From the NCBI GenBank assembly GCA_003144275.1, contig NJBF01000038.1, positions 3,580 to 35,579 of the forward strand: a stretch of DNA of 32,000 bases, written 5' to 3'. This DNA comes from Candidatus Heimdallarchaeota archaeon B3_Heim (GTDB lineage Archaea > Asgardarchaeota > Heimdallarchaeia > Hodarchaeales > Hodarchaeaceae). Position 1 is the first letter of the stretch. Each line of letters opens with the position of its first letter. Both the position numbers and the translations under genes were made by a program. Positions 3,753-18,311 of this stretch are shown piece by piece. The notes under the pieces were generated by a model. The model had not been told where the DNA came from and did not search any database. It worked only from the letters and a program-made list of their open reading frames with translations.

Positions 3753-6700
3753 ATGTCCACAGAAGAGGAAATGCCAGAAAAAGAAAAGAAAAAGGAACGA
3801 GAGGAACAAACAGAGGAGCAGAGAGAGATATTCACTGAAATAGAGGAAAAATTACTTGCTGAAGGCCCATACAACGATCAAACCATCGTTGAAGCGGAAA
3901 ATATGGAAATTTCCGAGTCATCCCCTCCGGAAGAGATTAATGAGAAGCCTATTGATGACCAAAAAGAGCAGAACATTGAGGATTATGCACTGCGGGAGAA
4001 TCAAAAGGAAGAAATCAAAAAGATAGAAGCTAGCTTAGTAACCATGGCAGAGGAAGGGTTTAACGATCAACAGGTAATTTATGAGGAGGAGAGAGAGGAA
4101 TCAACAAGTGAGCATGTTACATCCCAGAAGGAGCAGTTAGGGGAGCAGATAGAAGAGAATAATGAAAAAGTACAAGGAATTGAAGAAATTCCACTTACCC
4201 CAGAAAAAAATAGAGATCAAATTCAGGAGGAGGTGGAAACACCAAACGTTTTGGAGGTAGAAAGACGTGGAGAAGGTTTAGAAGAATTAGAGACAGTCGT
4301 ATCAACACAGGAACGCTTCACTGATCAACAAATTGTCTGGGAGGATGAAACGCAGAAAGATAGAGTTGTAAAGCTTAGGATCCAAGATAAATCAGATAAA
4401 AAAGATATTTTGTTTGAAAAGAACAGGAGAGAAGCAAATAAGGAGGATGAGAGGCGGTCGCAAAGCCAGATAGTACAGGAGGCTCGTGGACTAAGTAGAG
4501 AGGAAACAAAACAGAAAAATATCAAACAAAAATCAACACACAAAGAAGAAAACGATACTAGACTATCAGTAATTCAAAGTGGACAACAAGCAACCCAAAC
4601 AGGGACACACTCAGATCTTACAATCCTAGCAAGAGAGTGGAATCAATACATAACAAATGGAGGAAGAATAACAGTAGATATGTGGGAGATATATAACAAT
4701 ATACAGGAGAAGTACAATAAGCCAATTGTCTTGTACAAAGAAGATGAGGAAATAAATACCTATAGAATGAGCCCAAGTGGGAAATTGTTTTCCCAATTAG
4801 ATGCTAGTCTATTTAATGAACGATTAAGTAACCCCTCCAAACAAATTTCCAAATTACTTGATTATTGGTTAATCCAGAGAGGGAAAAAGGAAGGAATCAA
4901 ACCGTTTTTTGAAGTTACAATTGAGAATCCCAATACTAAAGAAATGGAAACATATTGGATTCCGAATGCGAGACAAAGGGTTTGGAACCCATATGAAGGG
5001 AAGGATCAGCGTTTTTTCTACGGCCCTCGTTCTGCTGGACGGATGATTACAAATTTCCTGACTGATAAGGTAAGATTATCTCAAAGCAACTTCAATGTGT
5101 ACTTAAAGTTGGAAGAGAATTTAAGAATGAAATTCCCTAAATTGGGTATTCAGACTGGAAATATGAGTTTTAACGGCCAGAAAATCTTGTTCAATACGTT
5201 TAATAGGTTAAAATATTCAAGAGAGGTGACAGAAGAAGTAATTCAACTGTTATTCTGGAAATATGTCGATTCACACTCCAAAAGATATATTCAGAATTCT
5301 TCTCTCAAAATATCAGAATTAGTGGAATACTGCAAAGAAAATGAAATTACAGGGAGAAAAAACATTACTCAGATGAAAATATTCGTTCCCAAATCTAATC
5401 CTGTTATTCTAAATAATACAATGGAAAATAAATTAAATAATGCAATGAATAAACCTTCGACTTCAGGTAGAAATAATGAGCTAACACACAAACCTAAGCT
5501 ACAAATTGTAACAAAACCGAAAGATACAGAGGCCTATATAAGTTCTAGACCCATTGTGAAAAACTTATTAACAACTCTTAAGATAATTGAGGATAATTTT
5601 GGAATAAATGGTCTTTCACCAGCATATAAACCACCTAAAAATCTTATCCTCAGTTATGATAATTCTAACAAGAATAAATTAATTATAAACGCAGAATCTG
5701 CTGATGATAAAGATCTAGCCCATTTTCTACTTGAAGGATTTCAATTGTCATCTAGAAGTAAGACCGCAAAAGGAGCCTTTTGGTTTGGAAAAATTATGCA
5801 TCCAATGAAAGGAAAAAGTAAAAATGAGTGGCACAAATTTACGAGCTTTTTGAAATCACGTTCTGAAAGAAAGATTGAGAATCATGATAAATGGTACTCT
5901 AGTAAACATGCGGGAGGAGAGAAAACTGTGAGAAGGAGAATAAATGTTGAAATCGATATTAACGGGTTTAAATTGCTAAAAGCAGAATTAATGGATAATG
6001 CGGTATCTCTGGCGAATGATAGCAGCCATAGAATATGGGTGAAACAGACTCGAGCTGATGCTAGAAGGAATAAAAATCCTACTGATGCACTTAAGCGGGC
6101 TGAGGAAAACATTCAATGGTGGAACAGCATTCGTACATTAGTACCAATTGGTTCTGAGAACTATCAAGAACAAGCATTATTGTATCTTATGAATATTAAA
6201 AAATCAGCCGATGAGAGTCTTGGTAGAACCATTATATCTCAGAAACTTACTAATATTGAATTTTCAAAAATAACACAGGAATTAGAACAAATTTCAATCA
6301 GAGAGGTGAAAGACGTAAAAACTTCTAAGTTAATGACATTGCATGAGGTGATCCCAGTTGAAGAGAGTCATCGTATAGGATCAATGGGATATGCCTTTGA
6401 TGTTTTTAACGAACATCTCGGTGCAAATATTGGTTTTAAGGCTCAATTAGCTTTTATGAACAAGTTTTGTCCTTCTCAAAGTCCACTAGCTGAATACTTG
6501 GGATTGGATAAGATTAAATTAAGGGGTTGTGAAATTGAATTAAAATGGGGTGATCGTAAAGGATATGCAAATACTGGTTTAAGCATGACTGACACTTTCG
6601 CTCCAGACGTAATCATAAAGGATAAATCAGGAAATCTGTTAGCTGTTATCCAACTGAAGGGTTATTCACAAACTAGAACTAGTATACAACCCAATGTTTC

Positions 6701-7271
6701 AGTAATCCAATTATTAGAACTTCTAAAATACAGAAAAAACCCAGCTATTAAAACAGCTTTAGTCAATGTTGATCAAATTGATGATTTCATAAGATATGAA
6801 TGGCTTGTATCTGCAAAATATCAAACTCAACAAACAGATCAAGTTATGGAAAGAATCAATCTTTTAAAAGATGGTTTCAGCAAACATCCTGAAATTGACC
6901 CTCTCATTCCTAAGAATTTGAGAAAAAGAGCATTTATCGAAGGTATTTATGAAAAAGCAATCGATGCAGACTCACAATATATATTTGAGAAAGAAATGGA
7001 CAATATAAAAACCCAGATTCATTCCTCCGAGGAAAATTTCAACCTATTTATCGGACAGAAGGGGAAAAATACAATAACTGACAAAGTAGTAGAAAATTAT
7101 ATTGGAGGCATTCAAGAGAAACTGCAAAAATTAATTAACCAGATAGGCCAACCTGATGGAATTGAGTCCATTGGGCAATTTAGGTATCATTGGGGGAAGA
7201 TTGTGACCTTGGATTATTATAGGAGAATTCAGAAGTATTTTCGGATTTTTCCCCAACAAGATAAAAAATGA
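3753..7271 (+). CDS. Large hypothetical protein: acidic low-complexity N-terminus, C-terminal PD-(D/E)XK-like motif
   Basis: 1172-aa ORF; first ~290 aa are E/Q/K-rich; FAPDVIIKDKSGNLLAVIQLKG at about 6597-6662. Confidence 0.6.
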   Translation: MSTEEEMPEKEKKKEREEQTEEQREIFTEIEEKLLAEGPYNDQTIVEAENMEISESSPPEEINEKPIDDQKEQNIEDYALRENQKEEIKKIEASLVTMAEEGFNDQQVIYEEEREESTSEHVTSQKEQLGEQIEENNEKVQGIEEIPLTPEKNRDQIQEEVETPNVLEVERRGEGLEELETVVSTQERFTDQQIVWEDETQKDRVVKLRIQDKSDKKDILFEKNRREANKEDERRSQSQIVQEARGLSREETKQKNIKQKSTHKEENDTRLSVIQSGQQATQTGTHSDLTILAREWNQYITNGGRITVDMWEIYNNIQEKYNKPIVLYKEDEEINTYRMSPSGKLFSQLDASLFNERLSNPSKQISKLLDYWLIQRGKKEGIKPFFEVTIENPNTKEMETYWIPNARQRVWNPYEGKDQRFFYGPRSAGRMITNFLTDKVRLSQSNFNVYLKLEENLRMKFPKLGIQTGNMSFNGQKILFNTFNRLKYSREVTEEVIQLLFWKYVDSHSKRYIQNSSLKISELVEYCKENEITGRKNITQMKIFVPKSNPVILNNTMENKLNNAMNKPSTSGRNNELTHKPKLQIVTKPKDTEAYISSRPIVKNLLTTLKIIEDNFGINGLSPAYKPPKNLILSYDNSNKNKLIINAESADDKDLAHFLLEGFQLSSRSKTAKGAFWFGKIMHPMKGKSKNEWHKFTSFLKSRSERKIENHDKWYSSKHAGGEKTVRRRINVEIDINGFKLLKAELMDNAVSLANDSSHRIWVKQTRADARRNKNPTDALKRAEENIQWWNSIRTLVPIGSENYQEQALLYLMNIKKSADESLGRTIISQKLTNIEFSKITQELEQISIREVKDVKTSKLMTLHEVIPVEESHRIGSMGYAFDVFNEHLGANIGFKAQLAFMNKFCPSQSPLAEYLGLDKIKLRGCEIELKWGDRKGYANTGLSMTDTFAPDVIIKDKSGNLLAVIQLKGYSQTRTSIQPNVSVIQLLELLKYRKNPAIKTALVNVDQIDDFIRYEWLVSAKYQTQQTDQVMERINLLKDGFSKHPEIDPLIPKNLRKRAFIEGIYEKAIDADSQYIFEKEMDNIKTQIHSSEENFNLFIGQKGKNTITDKVVENYIGGIQEKLQKLINQIGQPDGIESIGQFRYHWGKIVTLDYYRRIQKYFRIFPQQDKK

Positions 7272-7330
7272 GATAAACTTAACTTTGAGCTGAATATTTA
7301 CAAAAAATAAATTGTATGTGGAGAATAACA

Positions 7331-8548
7331 ATGGAATTAACATCTGAAGAACAAGAGATGGCGGCAGGGAAACATGGCAAAGCGGCTCAAACGGCCATGA
7401 ACATTTTAGTAACCTTGGGTGAAATTTACGGTGCGAAAAAACTTATTGATATTACCTCGGTTCAAATAGCTGGCGTAAGCTACGCAAATTTGAATGAACC
7501 CGGGTTAGCATGGTTAGAAGAAATGGCAAAAGACGGAAAAGTTAGAACTTTCACCACTTTAAATCCTGCTGGAAAACTTAATAGCTAGACAATAGCTATT
7601 AGGTCCAGAATGGATTTAGAGGAATGGCGTAAGTTAGCTATAAGTGAGGAGTTTGCAGAGAACCAGAAAAAGGTCGTAGAGGCATTTGGAGCCCTCGGAG
7701 TTATTACTACCTGCTCATGTACTCCCTACCTATATGGTAATCTTCCTGCATACGGCCAGAATATCGCATGGAGTGAAAGCTCTGCTGTTTGTTACGCTAA
7801 TTCTGTATTAGGTGCAAAATCCAATCGTGAAGGTGGACCAAGCGCCTTGAGTGCAGCACTTGTCGGAAAGACTCCTGAATATGGATTTCACCTTCATGAG
7901 AATCGTCAACCAGAAATCAAAGTCGATGTACAGTGTGATGTGAAGAGTACGTTTCGATTTGGTGCCTTAGGAAAAGTACTTGGAGATCGTTTCGGTAAAA
8001 AGATTACGTATATTGCTGGAATCTCCAAGGCTTCGGTTGAAGAGCTAAAATCATTTTGTGCCTCATATGCCACTTATGGTGGTGTTGCATTATTTCACAT
8101 GGAAGATATTACTCCGAATCGAGTTGATAAAATCCCTGATACGGTAGAAACTGTTACTGAGGATGATATGAAGAAGGCTCTTGGAGATTTAGACGATGAA
8201 ACCGAAATAGATTTCATCAGTTTGGGTTGTCCTCATGCTTCACTAAAGGAATTGGAATACATCGCCAAGAAATTGGAAGGAAAATCCATTAATCCAAAGA
8301 AAGAAGTATGGATCACCACTGCTCGACCAACTAAGCAAATCGCTGACCGAATGGGATTTACAAAACTAATTGAAGATTCTGGTGCCAAAGTTGCAGCAGA
8401 TACATGTTGTGTTGTAGCACCAATCAAAGGTCGATTTCACGGTTTAGCGTCTGATTCGGCGAAAATGTGTTATTATGGATCTGGACGCAACAAGTTCGCG
8501 GTAAAATTAATGTCAATGGATGAATGTCTAGAGGAGGCTTTATCATAA
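7331..8548 (+). CDS. acnX: Phosphomevalonate dehydratase large subunit (AcnX type II), interrupted by a 36-nt insertion; exons 7331-7574 and 7611-8548, 393 aa when joined
   Basis: ORFs 7316..7588 and 7610..8548 share a frame and are consecutive parts of one protein (MELTSEEQEM...TTLNPAG | MDLEEW...TCSCTPY...WSESSA...SLGCPH...ADTCCVV). GGAGA RBS precedes ATG 7331. Confidence 0.92.
7575..7610 (+). other. Putative archaeal bulge-helix-bulge/loop (EndA-type) mRNA intron, 36 nt
   Basis: Central helix CUGG 7569-7572 / CCAG 7605-7608; bulges AA^A (7573-7575) and AA^U (7609-7611); 12-bp intron stem 7576-7587/7593-7604 with GACAA loop; 10-bp exon stem 7557-7566/7612-7621. Contains an in-frame UAG (7586-7588). 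Removal gives GGA-AUG-GAU. Confidence 0.85.
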
Positions 8549-8937
8549 TGAAATTAACAGGTAGAAAAATTTTCAAAGGCAAAGCTTCTGGTGAGGCTTT
8601 AGTTACAAAGGATAGCATCTCATTTTATGGTGGGGTTGATCCAGAAAATGGTGTTGTCGTTGAAAAAGACCATGAATTAGAAGGTATCAATATCAATGAT
8701 AAAATTCTAGTTTTTCCTTCTGGTAAAGGATCTACAGTAGGATCTTACGTTATTTATCAAATGGCTATGACAGGAAAAGGGCCCAAAGCTTTAGTACTTA
8801 ATGATTGTGAAGCCATCGTTGCAGTAGGGACGATAATTTCGGAGCTTCCCTGTGTAGATCAAATAGATGTCACTAAAATCGAAACTGGAATGCAATTAAA
8901 CGTTGATGGTGAAAACGGTATAGTAGAGATACTTTAA
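8548..8937 (+). CDS. Phosphomevalonate dehydratase small subunit (AcnX swiveling domain, DUF126)
   Basis: GEALVTKDSISFYGGVDPENG...GKGSTVGSY motifs; TAATG stop/start overlap with the large subunit; GAGGAGG RBS at 8531-8537. Confidence 0.92.
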   Translation: MKLTGRKIFKGKASGEALVTKDSISFYGGVDPENGVVVEKDHELEGININDKILVFPSGKGSTVGSYVIYQMAMTGKGPKALVLNDCEAIVAVGTIISELPCVDQIDVTKIETGMQLNVDGENGIVEIL

Positions 8938-8944
8938 CATCTCT

Positions 8945-10059
8945 CTACCCTTTTTCTATTTTCATTCCTTCACTCGAAAATTCGATATCAATGGGCATTA
9001 TCCCATTTTTTATCCATTCCTTGACAATTAATGCTGCATTAATTGCATTGAAACATACTCCTACACTGCAGTCTCCACCCCCTGCGCCTGAAAATTTTGC
9101 CACTGCTCCATATTTTGATGCTGTATGACTCATAATTTGATGGGCTTCAATTTCTAGGTGACAGGAGCAGGCGAAACTTAATTCTTCTAATAAAATTCTA
9201 TTTTGGTCGAGTAATTTCAGGATAGCTACTTGGTTCTTGGATTGGATGGCTTCAATTAATTTTTCAGTCACATCCGCAATTCTAGAGATAATAGTATAAT
9301 AACTATCAGGATCTTTTTGCTTATACAGTTTCATTTCTTGGACTAATTTCTTTGTAGAAGCACTCGTGCCAGTAAATCCTACCATCATAACAAGATCGGC
9401 TGGTAAATTAATTGGGATGCATTGTAATAGAGGCCATTCTTCATTAACTAAATTACTCTGAGAGTCAGTTGATATCTTTTGTTGTAACCATTCAGGATCA
9501 AACTTTCTGTAAATAAGTGCTCCTCCGAAAGTGGATGCAGCGACATCAAACCCAGATCCGAGTTTTCCTTGCCCCAAGTAATGCGAGATTATACTCAGTT
9601 TAAATATTGCTTCTTTATCCTGTTGTGTGAATGAAGAGTTCGAATGGTATTGAATTACAGCACCAATAATTGCTACTACTGCCGCCGCGCTACTCCCGAA
9701 TCCTACCTTCATTTCTTTTCCTGTTTCCTCATTTTTAACCGAGCTGATATCACCCCAGGTTTTCAAGTGGAACGGTTGTATCGGGATGTTTCTTGCCTCG
9801 AGATACCGTAGCGCAGATTCGATGGCATACTTAGTAAATATAACTCTTGTATCTTCACTATCAATGGAAAGAGTCCCCCCAGAGTAGAAACATTTCGAGG
9901 ATAAATTGAAATCATTCAGACGGATTGAAATATGGTCATCAGGTTGAATTGCAGAAAAACTCTCTGTTGAACTGCAAGGACTATACATCTAACATTTTTC
10001 TCTAGGATACTCCATTCACCCGAGAGCATTAATTTTCCAGGAGCCGAAACTACAATCAT
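8945..10059 (-). CDS. mvaK2: Phosphomevalonate kinase (GHMP family), apparent 1-nt frameshift at 9955-9959
   Basis: The real N-terminus MIVVSAPGKLMLSGEWSILE starts at ATG 10059 in a different frame from the 8945..9988 ORF, which carries KVGFGSSAA, GSGFDVAASTFGG and KFSGAGGGDC. One extra T in the T5 run joins them colinearly into 371 aa. Confidence 0.85.
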
Positions 10060-17935: not shown

Positions 17936-18311
17936 GTGAGCATCGCTCCAATGAGTAATCCAGCTTCTGTTCACCTAAATAAGTCACCTAATTTAGGTTC
18001 CTGACATCAACCTAAGCGCAACTCTCCTAGATCTTGTGAAAGATCAAATGCTCTGCTTGCATTCACCGAGGGTGTTCGTCTCATCGATTCCTTATTCGTC
18101 CTCAAGAGCTTAAATAATCGTGTGTTACCACAGACTTCACTCTATCATCGCCATCTGAATAAGGGCGTGTCGTTTCTGTAACAGAGCCCAACCTCTCGAT
18201 TGACAAAGATTTTTCCAGGAAGGAAAAGCCTCTGTTCGGCATGAAAGAATGGCTGGAATTTCCTCAGATTCTCTATGAAATCCGAAGTCAGGCTGTTGCT
18301 TCGATGCCCAC
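17936..18311 (-). ncRNA. rnpB: RNase P RNA, about 376 nt
   Basis: P1 ends GUGGGCAUCG (18311-18302) / CGAUGCUCAC (17945-17936) pair. P4 halves GAGGAAAUUCCAGC and ACAGAAGCUGGAUUA pair. ACAGAAACG, GAUGAGACG and UGCAAG resemble conserved RNase P elements. Confidence 0.92.

What the first reader, a model, noticed from the sequence alone, without database searches (positions are those of the whole stretch)
7557..7621. Candidate tRNA-endonuclease-spliced mRNA intron in the phosphomevalonate dehydratase (acnX) gene
Seen: 36 extra nt split the conserved TTLNPAG-MD motif, keep the frame and carry an in-frame UAG. The RNA can fold as a 4-bp helix CUGG/CCAG, a 3-nt bulge AAA, a 12-bp intron stem with GACAA loop, and AAU opposite UG (2x3 loop) closed by a 10-bp exon-exon stem (bulge-helix-loop geometry). 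Established: EndA cuts after the 2nd nt of each 3-nt bulge and RtcB ligates; such introns occur in archaeal tRNA/rRNA and in crenarchaeal cbf5 mRNA. Applying that rule gives cuts at 7574/7575 and 7610/7611, removing exactly 36 nt and restoring GGA-AUG-GAU and a 393-aa protein. Inference: splicing is required for expression, making this an mRNA intron in a core lipid-pathway gene of a probable Asgard archaeon. I know of no precedent in this gene. Annotation would call two ORFs or a pseudogene, so more such introns may be hidden genome-wide. Caveat: A7573-U7604 allows an alternative 5-bp helix register.
Basis: partly seen in the sequence, partly recalled or inferred. Interest (0 to 1): 0.95.

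Follow-up and report, generated by a model that had tools for sequence, protein, structure and literature searches.

The report
tRNA-type intron splits Asgard acnX gene
A 36-base hairpin insert shaped like an archaeal tRNA intron interrupts the only aconitase-X (mevalonate-pathway dehydratase) gene of this Hodarchaeales (Asgard) archaeon; a dozen related alleles conserve it as RNA structure, so the mRNA very probably has to be cut and re-joined, which the papers I searched report inside a coding sequence for only one other archaeal gene.

Summary
The acnX large-subunit gene (7331-8548) carries a 36-nt insert (7575-7610) with an in-frame TAG, exactly between Pfam AcnX profile positions 82 and 83.

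New evidence:
- Twelve further alleles from congeneric Hodarchaeales MAGs and metagenomes carry a homologous insert at the same site. Lengths are 36, 34 or 29 nt, so most shift the frame.
- Removing it by the BHB rule gives a 393/394-aa ORF in all 11 full-length intact alleles (a 12th is cut by a contig end).
- Six of 8 hairpin pairs show compensatory changes.
- The exon codons inside the central helix are fixed (GCU GGA) only in intron-bearing alleles.
- dN/dS is 0.02-0.07 in both exons.
- Intron-bearing and intronless alleles are interleaved on the gene tree.
- The genome encodes an alpha/beta EndA with the crenarchaeal-type loop lysine, and RtcB. It lacks Pyl genes, and TAG is an ordinary stop.

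No RNA data exist, so splicing is inferred (about 0.8). The main rival is a split gene.

In print, only cbf5 (Crenarchaeota) has a BHB intron in a coding sequence. This scan has already noted similar mRNA introns in other Asgard and DPANN genomes. I call it a new member of a known kind.

The parts
7331..7574 (+). acnX large-subunit exon 1. It covers codons 1-81 plus the first base of the Met82 codon. The SD-like GGAG lies at 7320-7323.
   Evidence: Residues 1-81 match Pfam PF04412 profile positions 1-82, E 1.6e-28. Orthologues start at MELT....
7575..7610 (+). 36-nt BHB/BHL-type intron. Because GAA is repeated at both borders, cut pairs shifted together by 0 to -3 nt give the same product.
   Evidence: Homologous inserts of 36/34/29 nt sit at the same site in 12 other alleles.
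7586..7588 (+). In-frame TAG inside the intron. It ends the unspliced reading after 85 aa (...PAGKLNS*).
   Evidence: TAG behaves as a normal stop genome-wide.
7569..7572 (+). 5' strand of the central 4-bp helix (CUGG). These are exon bases from the Ala and Gly codons GCU GGA.
   Evidence: It pairs with 7605-7608. GCU GGA is fixed in 11 of 11 scored intron alleles against 1 of 19 intronless alleles.
7573..7575 (+). 3-nt bulge AAA holding the predicted 5' splice site (7574/7575).
   Evidence: Geometry. The cut rule is that of cbf5 introns (PMC2738675).
7576..7604 (+). Intron hairpin: 12-bp stem (7576-7587 with 7593-7604) and GACAA loop (7588-7592).
   Evidence: Across 13 alleles, 6 of 8 scored pairs show compensatory changes and 86.5% of cells are paired.
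7605..7608 (+). 3' strand of the central helix (CCAG), made of intron bases.
   Evidence: CCAG in 5 alleles, CUAG (one G-U pair) in 1, and ACAG (one G.A mismatch) in 7.
7609..7611 (+). AAU holding the predicted 3' splice site (7610/7611). It lies opposite UG 7567-7568, forming a 2x3 internal loop, so this is the relaxed 'loop' form.
   Evidence: The bases are invariant in 13 alleles.
7557..7566 (+). 5' strand of the exon-exon helix. It is 10 bp in this allele; only 7564-7566 (UCC), and mostly A7563, pair in relatives.
7612..7621 (+). 3' strand of the exon-exon helix.
7611..8548 (+). acnX large-subunit exon 2. It runs from the last two bases of the Met82 codon to the stop at 8546-8548.
   Evidence: Residues 1-308 match Pfam PF04412 profile positions 83-400, E 4.2e-108. 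The intact orthologue matches PDB 7CNR (T. kodakarensis AcnX) at E 9e-101.
8548..8937 (+). acnX small (swivel) subunit, same operon. The listed ORF starts at 8524; the family match starts at Met 8548.
   Evidence: PF01989, E 6e-32. NF003046, 179.5 bits, over its cut-off.
8945..9988 (-). Convergent GHMP kinase, phosphomevalonate-kinase type. It gives mevalonate-pathway context.
   Evidence: TIGR01220, 186 bits, over its cut-off of 165.7.

Best explanation
Bases 7575-7610 are an archaeal bulge-helix-bulge type intron (relaxed bulge-helix-loop form) inside the coding sequence of the aconitase-X large subunit. This is the probable phosphomevalonate dehydratase of a Hodarchaeales (Heimdallarchaeia, Asgard) archaeon.

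Proposed mechanism:
1. The acnX pre-mRNA folds locally (shown in silico). Exon bases CUGG pair with the intron's last CCAG to form the 4-bp central helix. The 5' splice site sits in a 3-nt bulge (AA|A) next to a 12-bp intron hairpin. The 3' splice site (AA|U) sits in a 2x3 internal loop closed by a short exon-exon helix.
2. The heteromeric (alpha-beta)2 splicing endonuclease EndA, which also serves this genome's many tRNA introns, cuts both sites, which lie 4 bp apart (inferred).
3. RtcB joins the exons and probably circularises the 36-mer (inferred).
4. The spliced mRNA reads GGA-AUG-GAU and encodes the 393-aa enzyme (shown in silico).
5. Unspliced mRNA stops after 85 codons.

The intron is old within the genus. 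It evolves under constraint on RNA structure rather than on coding, hence the 36/34/29-nt forms, and it has been precisely lost or exchanged several times.
For: 1. The insertion is clean: it falls between Pfam AcnX profile positions 82 and 83, and this is the only PF04412 locus in the genome.
2. The local fold has z -6.46. It is the best ORF-merging BHB candidate of 71,160 raw hits in the first scan and 119,092 in the second.
3. Thirteen alleles carry a homologous insert at the same site, with lengths 36, 34 and 29 nt. The 34- and 29-nt forms shift the frame. The 36-nt forms carry TAG or TAA. One cut rule restores a 393/394-aa ORF in all 11 full-length intact alleles; the contig-end-truncated G014 allele stays open across the junction for its 365 available codons.
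4. The intron stem covaries: 6 of 8 pairs have double compensatory changes, 86.5% of cells are paired, 0 of 500 shuffles reach the observed score, and slid controls are far lower.
5. Exon synonymous sites inside the helix and bulge are fixed as GCU GGA in 11 of 11 scored intron alleles, against 1 of 19 intronless alleles (Fisher p 2e-7, not corrected for phylogeny). dS between the compared alleles is 0.6 to >3.
6. dN/dS is 0.02-0.07 in both exons, the same as between intronless alleles.
7. Intron-bearing and intronless alleles are interleaved on the gene tree. Well-supported branches force at least 3 changes, and a single intron clade is rejected (p-AU 3e-16).
8. The splicing machinery is encoded.
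   - There are two EndA homologues.
   - One has the Tyr/His/Lys catalytic motifs and aligns without gaps to the A. pernix alpha subunit (PDB 3P1Z_B, E 8.5e-43), including the loop lysine.
   - The other lacks the catalytic His, as a beta subunit does.
   - RtcB is present.
   - Asgard (alpha-beta)2 EndA with the L1 loop is reported as the broad-specificity type (PMC5829648).
9. aragorn calls introns in 18 of 34 tRNAs of this genome.
10. The precedent, the cbf5 introns, uses the same cut rule, relaxed motifs and a hetero-oligomeric EndA (PMC2738675).
Against: - There is no RNA evidence. No RNA run holds this sequence, so excision is inferred.
- The thermodynamic optimum is not the frame-restoring register. 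In the 36-nt class the MFE has a 5-bp central helix. In the ACAG class (7 of 13 alleles) the canonical register needs a G.A mismatch, and the MFE prefers a 3-bp helix with a GAA bulge. Two of nine relatives folded do not recover the architecture as MFE at all.
- The 3' site lies in a 2x3 internal loop, not a strict bulge.
- The exon helix is conserved for only 3-4 bp.
- Exon 2 begins with the family's conserved Met. A GGU/AGGU/GAGGU stretch lies 6 nt upstream, so separate translation of the 312-aa part cannot be excluded.
- The site is followed by a 9-residue gap in the alignment to T. kodakarensis AcnX, so a chain break there might be tolerated.
- Transcription and translation are coupled in archaea (established knowledge). 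Splicing would therefore have to outrun the first ribosome.
Confidence: 0.82

Rival explanations
1. Split gene. The insert is a structured intercistronic spacer. The 85-aa N-terminal piece and the 312-aa C-terminal piece are translated separately, by re-initiation at AUG 7610, and assemble with the small subunit into a three-chain enzyme.
For: - Exon 2 starts with ATG in every allele.
- A partial SD-like GGU/AGGU/GAGGU lies 6 nt upstream.
- Gene callers annotate two ORFs.
- The break is followed by a 9-residue gap against PDB 7CNR.
Against: - It does not explain the exon-intron helix CUGG/CCAG, nor the fixation of the synonymous exon sites GCU GGA only in insert-bearing alleles.
- It does not explain why the canonical BHB cut rule gives exactly the intronless sequence.
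- The C-terminal tails of the N-piece are unconserved and vary from 2 to 18 residues.
- The SD-like bases are buried in the stem and are not conserved.
- Repeated exact reversion to a fused gene is hard to explain without an RNA-level or allelic template.
- The Met is conserved in all intronless orthologues as an internal residue.
Confidence: 0.1
2. Pseudogene. acnX has been inactivated by a small insertion and is decaying.
For: One copy, the second partial copy in G007 (L032), really is degenerate: after removal of its 29-nt insert the frame stops at 93 aa.
Against: - dN/dS is 0.02-0.07 in both exons of intron alleles, with dS of 0.6 to >3.
- There is no other disruption in 12 alleles.
- The interrupted copy is the only acnX locus found in G000 and in G013.
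- The insert itself is conserved in structure.
Confidence: 0.02
3. The insert is decoded, not removed. TAG is read as pyrrolysine or suppressed, adding 12 residues, or ribosomes frameshift or hop over it (as in T4 gene 60 or mitochondrial 'byp' elements).
For: - The window's insert is a multiple of three.
Against: - PylS and PylD score below their cut-offs.
- ORFs ending in TAG run on in frame no more often than those ending in TAA or TGA.
- One relative's 36-nt insert has TAA.
- The 34- and 29-nt inserts shift the frame, and all seven fetched alleles hit stops when read unspliced.
- There is no matching take-off and landing codon: GGA is followed by ...AGA AUG, and landing on the GGA of AUGGA gives the wrong frame.
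Confidence: 0.02
4. A small mobile DNA element or palindromic insertion (MITE-like) with no RNA-level function, tolerated by chance.
For: The insert is a hairpin, and GAA is repeated at both borders, which could be read as a 3-bp target duplication.
Against: - There is no other copy in the genome (blastn-short).
- In 400 Asgard genomes the boundary pattern with a hairpin occurs only in acnX of this genus.
- It would inactivate a gene that is clearly under selection.
- Covariation and the exon-site constraint point to a selected RNA structure.
Confidence: 0.02

Closest known systems
BHB-like intron in the cbf5 (pseudouridine synthase) pre-mRNA of Crenarchaeota (Watanabe 2002; Yoshinari 2006; Yokobori 2009, PMC2738675)
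   Same: - A short intron inside a protein-coding sequence.
- An unconventional (relaxed) BHB motif.
- Cuts between the 2nd and 3rd bulge residues match the expected exon borders.
- Dependence on a hetero-oligomeric EndA.
- Lineage-specific loss of the intron.
- Hosts rich in non-canonical tRNA introns.
   Different: - A different gene: a metabolic Fe-S dehydratase instead of an RNA-modification enzyme.
- A different phylum: Asgard, Hodarchaeales.
- The intron is polymorphic among congeneric species, with three length classes.
- Splicing is experimentally shown for cbf5 (cDNA, in vitro cleavage) but not here.
BHB intron in the 5' UTR of Haloferax volcanii HVO_1309 (Schwarz 2020, PMC7714728)
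   Same: It is an mRNA substrate of the tRNA splicing endonuclease. A 46-nt intron is excised as a circle.
   Different: It lies in a UTR, so it does not interrupt a reading frame. The host is a euryarchaeon with a homodimeric EndA and a strict BHB.
Non-canonical tRNA introns of Thermoproteales, TACK and Asgard archaea, cut by (alpha-beta)2 EndA with the L1/CSL loop (PMC5829648)
   Same: - The same predicted motif class (HBh' with a relaxed second site).
- The same size range.
- The same enzyme type, encoded in this genome.
- This genome's tRNAs are intron-rich.
   Different: The host RNA is an mRNA. The central helix is built from codons, which constrains synonymous sites.
Unconventional HAC1/XBP1 mRNA splicing in eukaryotes (IRE1 cuts, tRNA ligase/RtcB joins); from my own knowledge and the review PMC13149111
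   Same: - Spliceosome-independent excision of a short intron from a coding mRNA at stem-loop sites.
- Ligation by the tRNA ligase (RtcB in animals).
- Removal changes the reading frame.
   Different: The nuclease is IRE1, not EndA/TSEN. That system is regulated by ER stress. No homology of the introns is implied; this is an analogy only.

Membership tests
Archaeal EndA-dependent (BHB/BHL) intron | Two splice sites in 3-nt bulges (or a bulge plus a loop) on opposite strands, separated by a 4-bp helix | tested here: met
   The 5' site fits a canonical helix-bulge-helix. The 3' site lies in a 2x3 internal loop, the relaxed form. The central helix has 4 standard pairs in 6 of 13 alleles (5 CCAG, 1 CUAG with a G-U) and 3 pairs plus a G.A mismatch in 7 of 13. 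The MFE often prefers a neighbouring register.
Archaeal EndA-dependent (BHB/BHL) intron | Cutting after the 2nd bulge nucleotide and joining the exons restores the functional sequence | tested here: met
   A 393/394-aa uninterrupted AcnX ORF results in all 11 full-length intact alleles of three length classes. The G014 allele, cut by a contig end, is open through the junction (365 codons). The junction equals the intronless orthologue sequence.
Archaeal EndA-dependent (BHB/BHL) intron | The structure, not the sequence, is conserved (compensatory changes) | tested here: met
   Six of 8 intron-stem pairs show double changes, and 0 of 500 shuffles reach the observed score. Exon helix codons are fixed only when the intron is present. 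There are only 13 related sequences, so this is supportive rather than proof.
Archaeal EndA-dependent (BHB/BHL) intron | The host encodes a splicing endonuclease able to accept relaxed motifs, and an RtcB ligase | tested here: met
   Alpha-like and beta-like EndA genes are present. The alpha aligns without gaps to A. pernix alpha, including the loop lysine. RtcB scores 560 bits. Enzyme activity was not tested.
Archaeal EndA-dependent (BHB/BHL) intron | Excision is observed in RNA (spliced junction, circular or linear intron) | not testable with these tools
   No RNA run holds the locus. The DNA contigs laid on it did not cover the site.
Split (two-cistron) gene | Conserved, accessible translation start signals for the downstream piece, and a defined end of the upstream piece | tested here: inconclusive
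   ATG is always present, but it is the family's conserved internal Met. The SD-like bases vary (GGU to GAGGU) and lie in the stem. The upstream tails vary from 2 to 18 residues.
Pyrrolysine or stop-codon recoding | Pyl machinery is present, or TAG is not used as a stop | tested here: not met
   PylS scores 28 bits against a cut-off of 178. PylD scores 22 bits against a cut-off of 150. TAG ends 21% of long ORFs, with a normal in-frame continuation rate.
Programmed translational bypass (T4 gene 60 / byp type) | Matching take-off and landing codons flank the gap | tested here: not met
   The take-off codon is GGA, but the codon before AUG is AGA. The only nearby GGA lands out of frame.

The most novel reading that the evidence does not exclude
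EndA/RtcB splicing of messenger RNA is a living, evolving process in Hodarchaeales, the archaea usually placed closest to eukaryotes. On this reading the acnX intron is not a frozen accident. It is gained, resized and precisely lost within a genus, through spliced-RNA or allelic templates. It may also gate production of the mevalonate-pathway dehydratase, so that splicing efficiency acts as a regulatory step, comparable in logic to HAC1/XBP1 splicing.
Probability: 0.15. Interest if true: 0.85.

Novelty: new member of a known kind. Interest (0 to 1): 0.66.

Why it matters
In the papers I searched, tRNA-type introns inside archaeal coding sequences rest on a single gene (cbf5, Crenarchaeota, 2002-2009), plus one 5' UTR case in Haloferax.

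This is a second, independent gene, in a different phylum (Asgard, Hodarchaeales). It comes with a natural series of 13 alleles that already provides covariation, frameshifting length variants and presence/absence polymorphism. That makes mRNA splicing by the tRNA machinery directly testable in the closest known relatives of eukaryotes.

It also has a practical side. Public annotations split this enzyme into an 83-112-aa ORF and a 312-aa ORF, both named 'aconitase X' where sources name them. That is about 19 of the 63 nearest exon-2 protein clusters and about 30 exon-1 clusters. Pathway reconstructions for these genomes can therefore mis-score the archaeal mevalonate pathway.

Finally, it shows codons being constrained by an intron's recognition helix.

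Tried and rejected
- **RNA evidence.** No RNA holder was listed for window 6800-9200. Laying four DNA runs (Logan contigs) on 7200-8000 gave only short, low-depth pieces, and none crossed the insert. Neither result says anything about expression.
- **Collection scan.** The pattern CCTGCTGGAAN{20,50}CAGAATGGA on genome contigs was too loose. It gave 120 mostly bacterial chance hits and only one relevant locus, L084.
- **Metagenome scan.** The scan with exon 2 found 7 loci. The four that span the site are all intronless.
- **Other mRNA introns in this genome.**
  - A strict scan and a relaxed scan that required ORF merging found nothing near the acnX score: 26 against at most 20.
  - The other hits look like intergenic hairpins between adjacent genes.
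  - The strict scan finds a hit within only about 7 of the 34 aragorn tRNA calls, and only about 3 of those match a predicted intron. This negative is therefore weak.
- **Other copies of the intron.** blastn-short against the genome found none.
- **Covariance model.** A model of the intron core was abandoned because MAFFT misaligned the trimmed sequences.
- **More distant short AcnX N-terminal fragments.** P0151-P0176 run past TTLNPAGMD, so they have no intron at this site.
  - P0159 is broken by a tandem duplication of about 22 nt.
  - P0169 is not interrupted by a hairpin insert and looks broken by frameshift(s).
  - P0073 is simply cut by a contig end.
- **Readings considered and rejected.** Pyl or suppressor read-through, translational bypass, pseudogene and MITE; see the rival explanations.
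Full report
**Observation**

The window is G000:C91:3580-35579 of a 3.95-Mb, 94%-complete archaeal MAG. Its closest named relatives are 'Candidatus Hodarchaeota/Hodarchaeales' MAGs, including Ca. Hodarchaeum mangrovi in the same genus.

The acnX large-subunit gene starts at 7331 and is interrupted. ORF 1 ends at TAG 7586-7588 (...TTLNPAGKLNS*), and ORF 2 starts at ATG 7610. Pfam AcnX (PF04412) aligns ORF 1 residues 1-81 to profile positions 1-82, and ORF 2 residues 1-308 to positions 83-400. The extra DNA is therefore a clean insertion with nothing missing.

The 79-nt region folds at -32.3 kcal/mol against -13.1 +/- 3.0 for dinucleotide shuffles (z -6.46).

**Relatives**

A family search in 41 related genomes found intronless, uninterrupted acnX in most congeners. 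The same site is interrupted in G013 (36 nt, TAA), G018 (two alleles, 36 nt with TAG and 34 nt), G014 (34 nt), and a second, degenerate copy in G007 (29 nt).

A protein search showed that 19 of the 63 nearest exon-2 clusters (at least 78% identity) are 312-313-aa gene calls that start at the exon-2 Met. About 30 clusters are 83-112-aa exon-1 calls. Fetching the DNA of several gave seven more distinct alleles with inserts of 29, 34 or 36 nt.

There are now 13 alleles, and all inserts are homologous: they share the ends AAUCU...GGUNCAGAA. Applying one rule (cut after ...CUGGAA and after ...AGAA) gives a 393- or 394-aa ORF in all 11 full-length intact alleles, and the contig-end-truncated G014 allele stays open across the junction. 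Unspliced, they stop after 2-18 extra codons.

A boundary-pattern search in 400 Asgard genomes found such hairpin inserts only in acnX of this genus. The four metagenome loci that span the site were intronless.

**What constrains the insert**

1. Its length varies by non-multiples of three (36/34/29). The flanking exons have no frame-disturbing change, and dN/dS is 0.02-0.07 in both exons at dS of 0.6 to >3. The insert is therefore not translated as part of the protein, and the gene is not decaying.
2. The intron hairpin covaries. Six of 8 scored pairs have compensatory double changes, 86.5% of cells are paired, no shuffle of 500 reaches the observed covariation, and slid controls drop to 10-45% pairing (the six-allele version is).
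3. The central helix is built from exon bases (CU of the Ala codon, GG of the Gly codon) and the last intron bases. In 11 of 11 scored intron alleles, and also in L214 and the G007 pseudogene copy by eye, these codons are GCU GGA. In 19 intronless congeneric alleles they vary freely, and only one has GCU GGA (Fisher p 2e-7, uncorrected for relatedness). That one allele, G003, sits inside the 36-nt clade, as expected after a precise loss. A stand-alone spacer hairpin would not constrain exon synonymous sites.
4. On the gene tree, intron-bearing and intronless alleles are interleaved. Well-supported branches force at least three changes, and a single intron clade is rejected (p-AU 3e-16). Three short fragments were left out of that tree. 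Precise repeated loss or exchange is typical intron behaviour, as shown for cbf5 (PMC2738675).

**Machinery and rival codes**

The genome has two EndA homologues.
- One is 182 aa, with the Tyr/His/Lys motifs. It aligns without gaps to the catalytic alpha subunit of the Aeropyrum pernix heterotetramer (3P1Z_B, E 8.5e-43), including the lysine of the crenarchaeal loop. That APE Lys44 matters for relaxed substrates is from my own memory of Hirata 2011.
- The other is 215 aa and lacks the catalytic His, as a beta subunit does.

Published work assigns Asgard archaea an (alpha-beta)2 EndA with the L1 loop, which is the broad-specificity type (PMC5829648). RtcB is present. aragorn calls introns in 18 of 34 tRNAs, and earlier unchecked notes of this scan describe multi-intron tRNAs throughout this genome.

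PylS and PylD are absent, and TAG behaves like the other stops. Read-through, frameshifting and hopping do not fit the TAA and frameshifting alleles, nor the codons at the borders.

**Caveats**

- No RNA data exist for this organism in the runs served, so splicing is inferred.
- The 3' site lies in a 2x3 internal loop.
- Seven of 13 alleles have a G.A mismatch in the central helix.
- MFE folds prefer a 5-bp helix (36-nt class) or a 3-bp helix (ACAG class). Two of nine relatives do not fold into the architecture as MFE at all. The frame-restoring cuts follow from the canonical 4-bp ruler, not from thermodynamics alone.
- Only the inner 3-4 bp of the exon helix are conserved.
- Exon 2 starts with the family's conserved Met, with a weak SD-like stretch upstream. 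In the alignment to T. kodakarensis AcnX (7CNR) the site is followed by a 9-residue gap.

A split three-chain enzyme therefore remains the main rival, at about 0.1.

**Function and context**

The best solved relative is T. kodakarensis AcnX (7CNR, E 9e-101). In relatives the gene sits between a UbiD-type decarboxylase, the AcnX small subunit and a UbiX-type flavoprotein. That is the gene set of the archaeal mevalonate pathway (established knowledge, Hayakawa 2018). In the window, the small subunit follows and a phosphomevalonate-kinase-type GHMP kinase converges on it. 'Phosphomevalonate dehydratase' is thus a reasonable but inferred name.

**Genome-wide**

Two BHB scans that required ORF merging ranked acnX first by a wide margin and gave no second convincing case. 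The strict scan recovers few of the tRNA introns, so other mRNA introns with weaker motifs could be missed.

**Comparison with the known**

Papers up to 2025 cite only cbf5 for archaeal pre-mRNA splicing, plus the Haloferax HVO_1309 5' UTR intron. Searches for BHB, Asgard, Hodarchaeales and mRNA introns found nothing on this.

Within this scan, follow-up agents have already reported BHB-type mRNA introns in other Asgard (Loki-, Odin-, Jord- and Baldr-type) genomes and in DPANN genomes. Those are unpublished AI notes that I did not re-test.

**Verdict**

- It is a new member of a known kind: a new gene and a new lineage, with an unusually informative allelic series.

Noticed in passing
L032 (G007:C46:54600-57100), minus strand about 1142-1199: G007 has an intact intronless acnX. 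About 3.6 kb away on the same contig it also has a second, partial copy that keeps a 29-nt version of the intron but is otherwise broken (stop after 93 codons once the insert is removed). This is a pseudogene that preserves the intron.
   Followed up: partly
L019/L031 (G018) and L028/L033 (G014): Two MAGs each hold two acnX alleles from different clades of the gene tree (36 nt plus 34 nt in G018; 34 nt plus intronless in G014). This suggests mixed populations in the bins, or real paralogues.
   Followed up: partly
window 3753-7271 (+): A 1172-aa ORF directly upstream of acnX has a very acidic, Lys/Glu-rich N-terminal third and no Pfam match.
   Followed up: no
window 17944-18303 (-): Archaeal RNase P RNA (RF00373, 128 bits).
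   Followed up: no
window 8945-9988 (-) and relatives L209, L212, L213: A phosphomevalonate-kinase-type GHMP kinase (the classical mevalonate route) lies next to acnX. In relatives acnX is flanked by UbiD and UbiX (the archaeal route). The genus may carry parts of both routes.
   Followed up: partly
G000:C10:37765-37873 and G000:C80:40049-40151: aragorn calls an intron-containing 'tRNA-Pyl(CUA)' and a 'tRNA-Stop(UUA)'. These are probably mis-read anticodons of intron-bearing tRNAs. The second has a strict BHB at 40088-40114 (CUUU UA|G ... AAAG AA|A). The genome lacks Pyl genes.
   Followed up: partly
L215 about 1757-1805; L216 about 1770-1870: In two more distant metagenomic lineages acnX is broken differently, and neither break is a hairpin insert. 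L215 has a tandem duplication of about 22 nt (GAATGGAAGAAGCATGGAATA twice). L216 looks broken by frameshift(s).
   Followed up: partly
G000:C55:1486-1545: The tRNA-Lys(CUU) intron of 60 nt is a textbook strict hBHBh' (CUCU UA|A ... AGAG AA|A, with a 7-bp exon helix and a 10-bp intron helix). It is a useful positive control for this organism's EndA.
   Followed up: no
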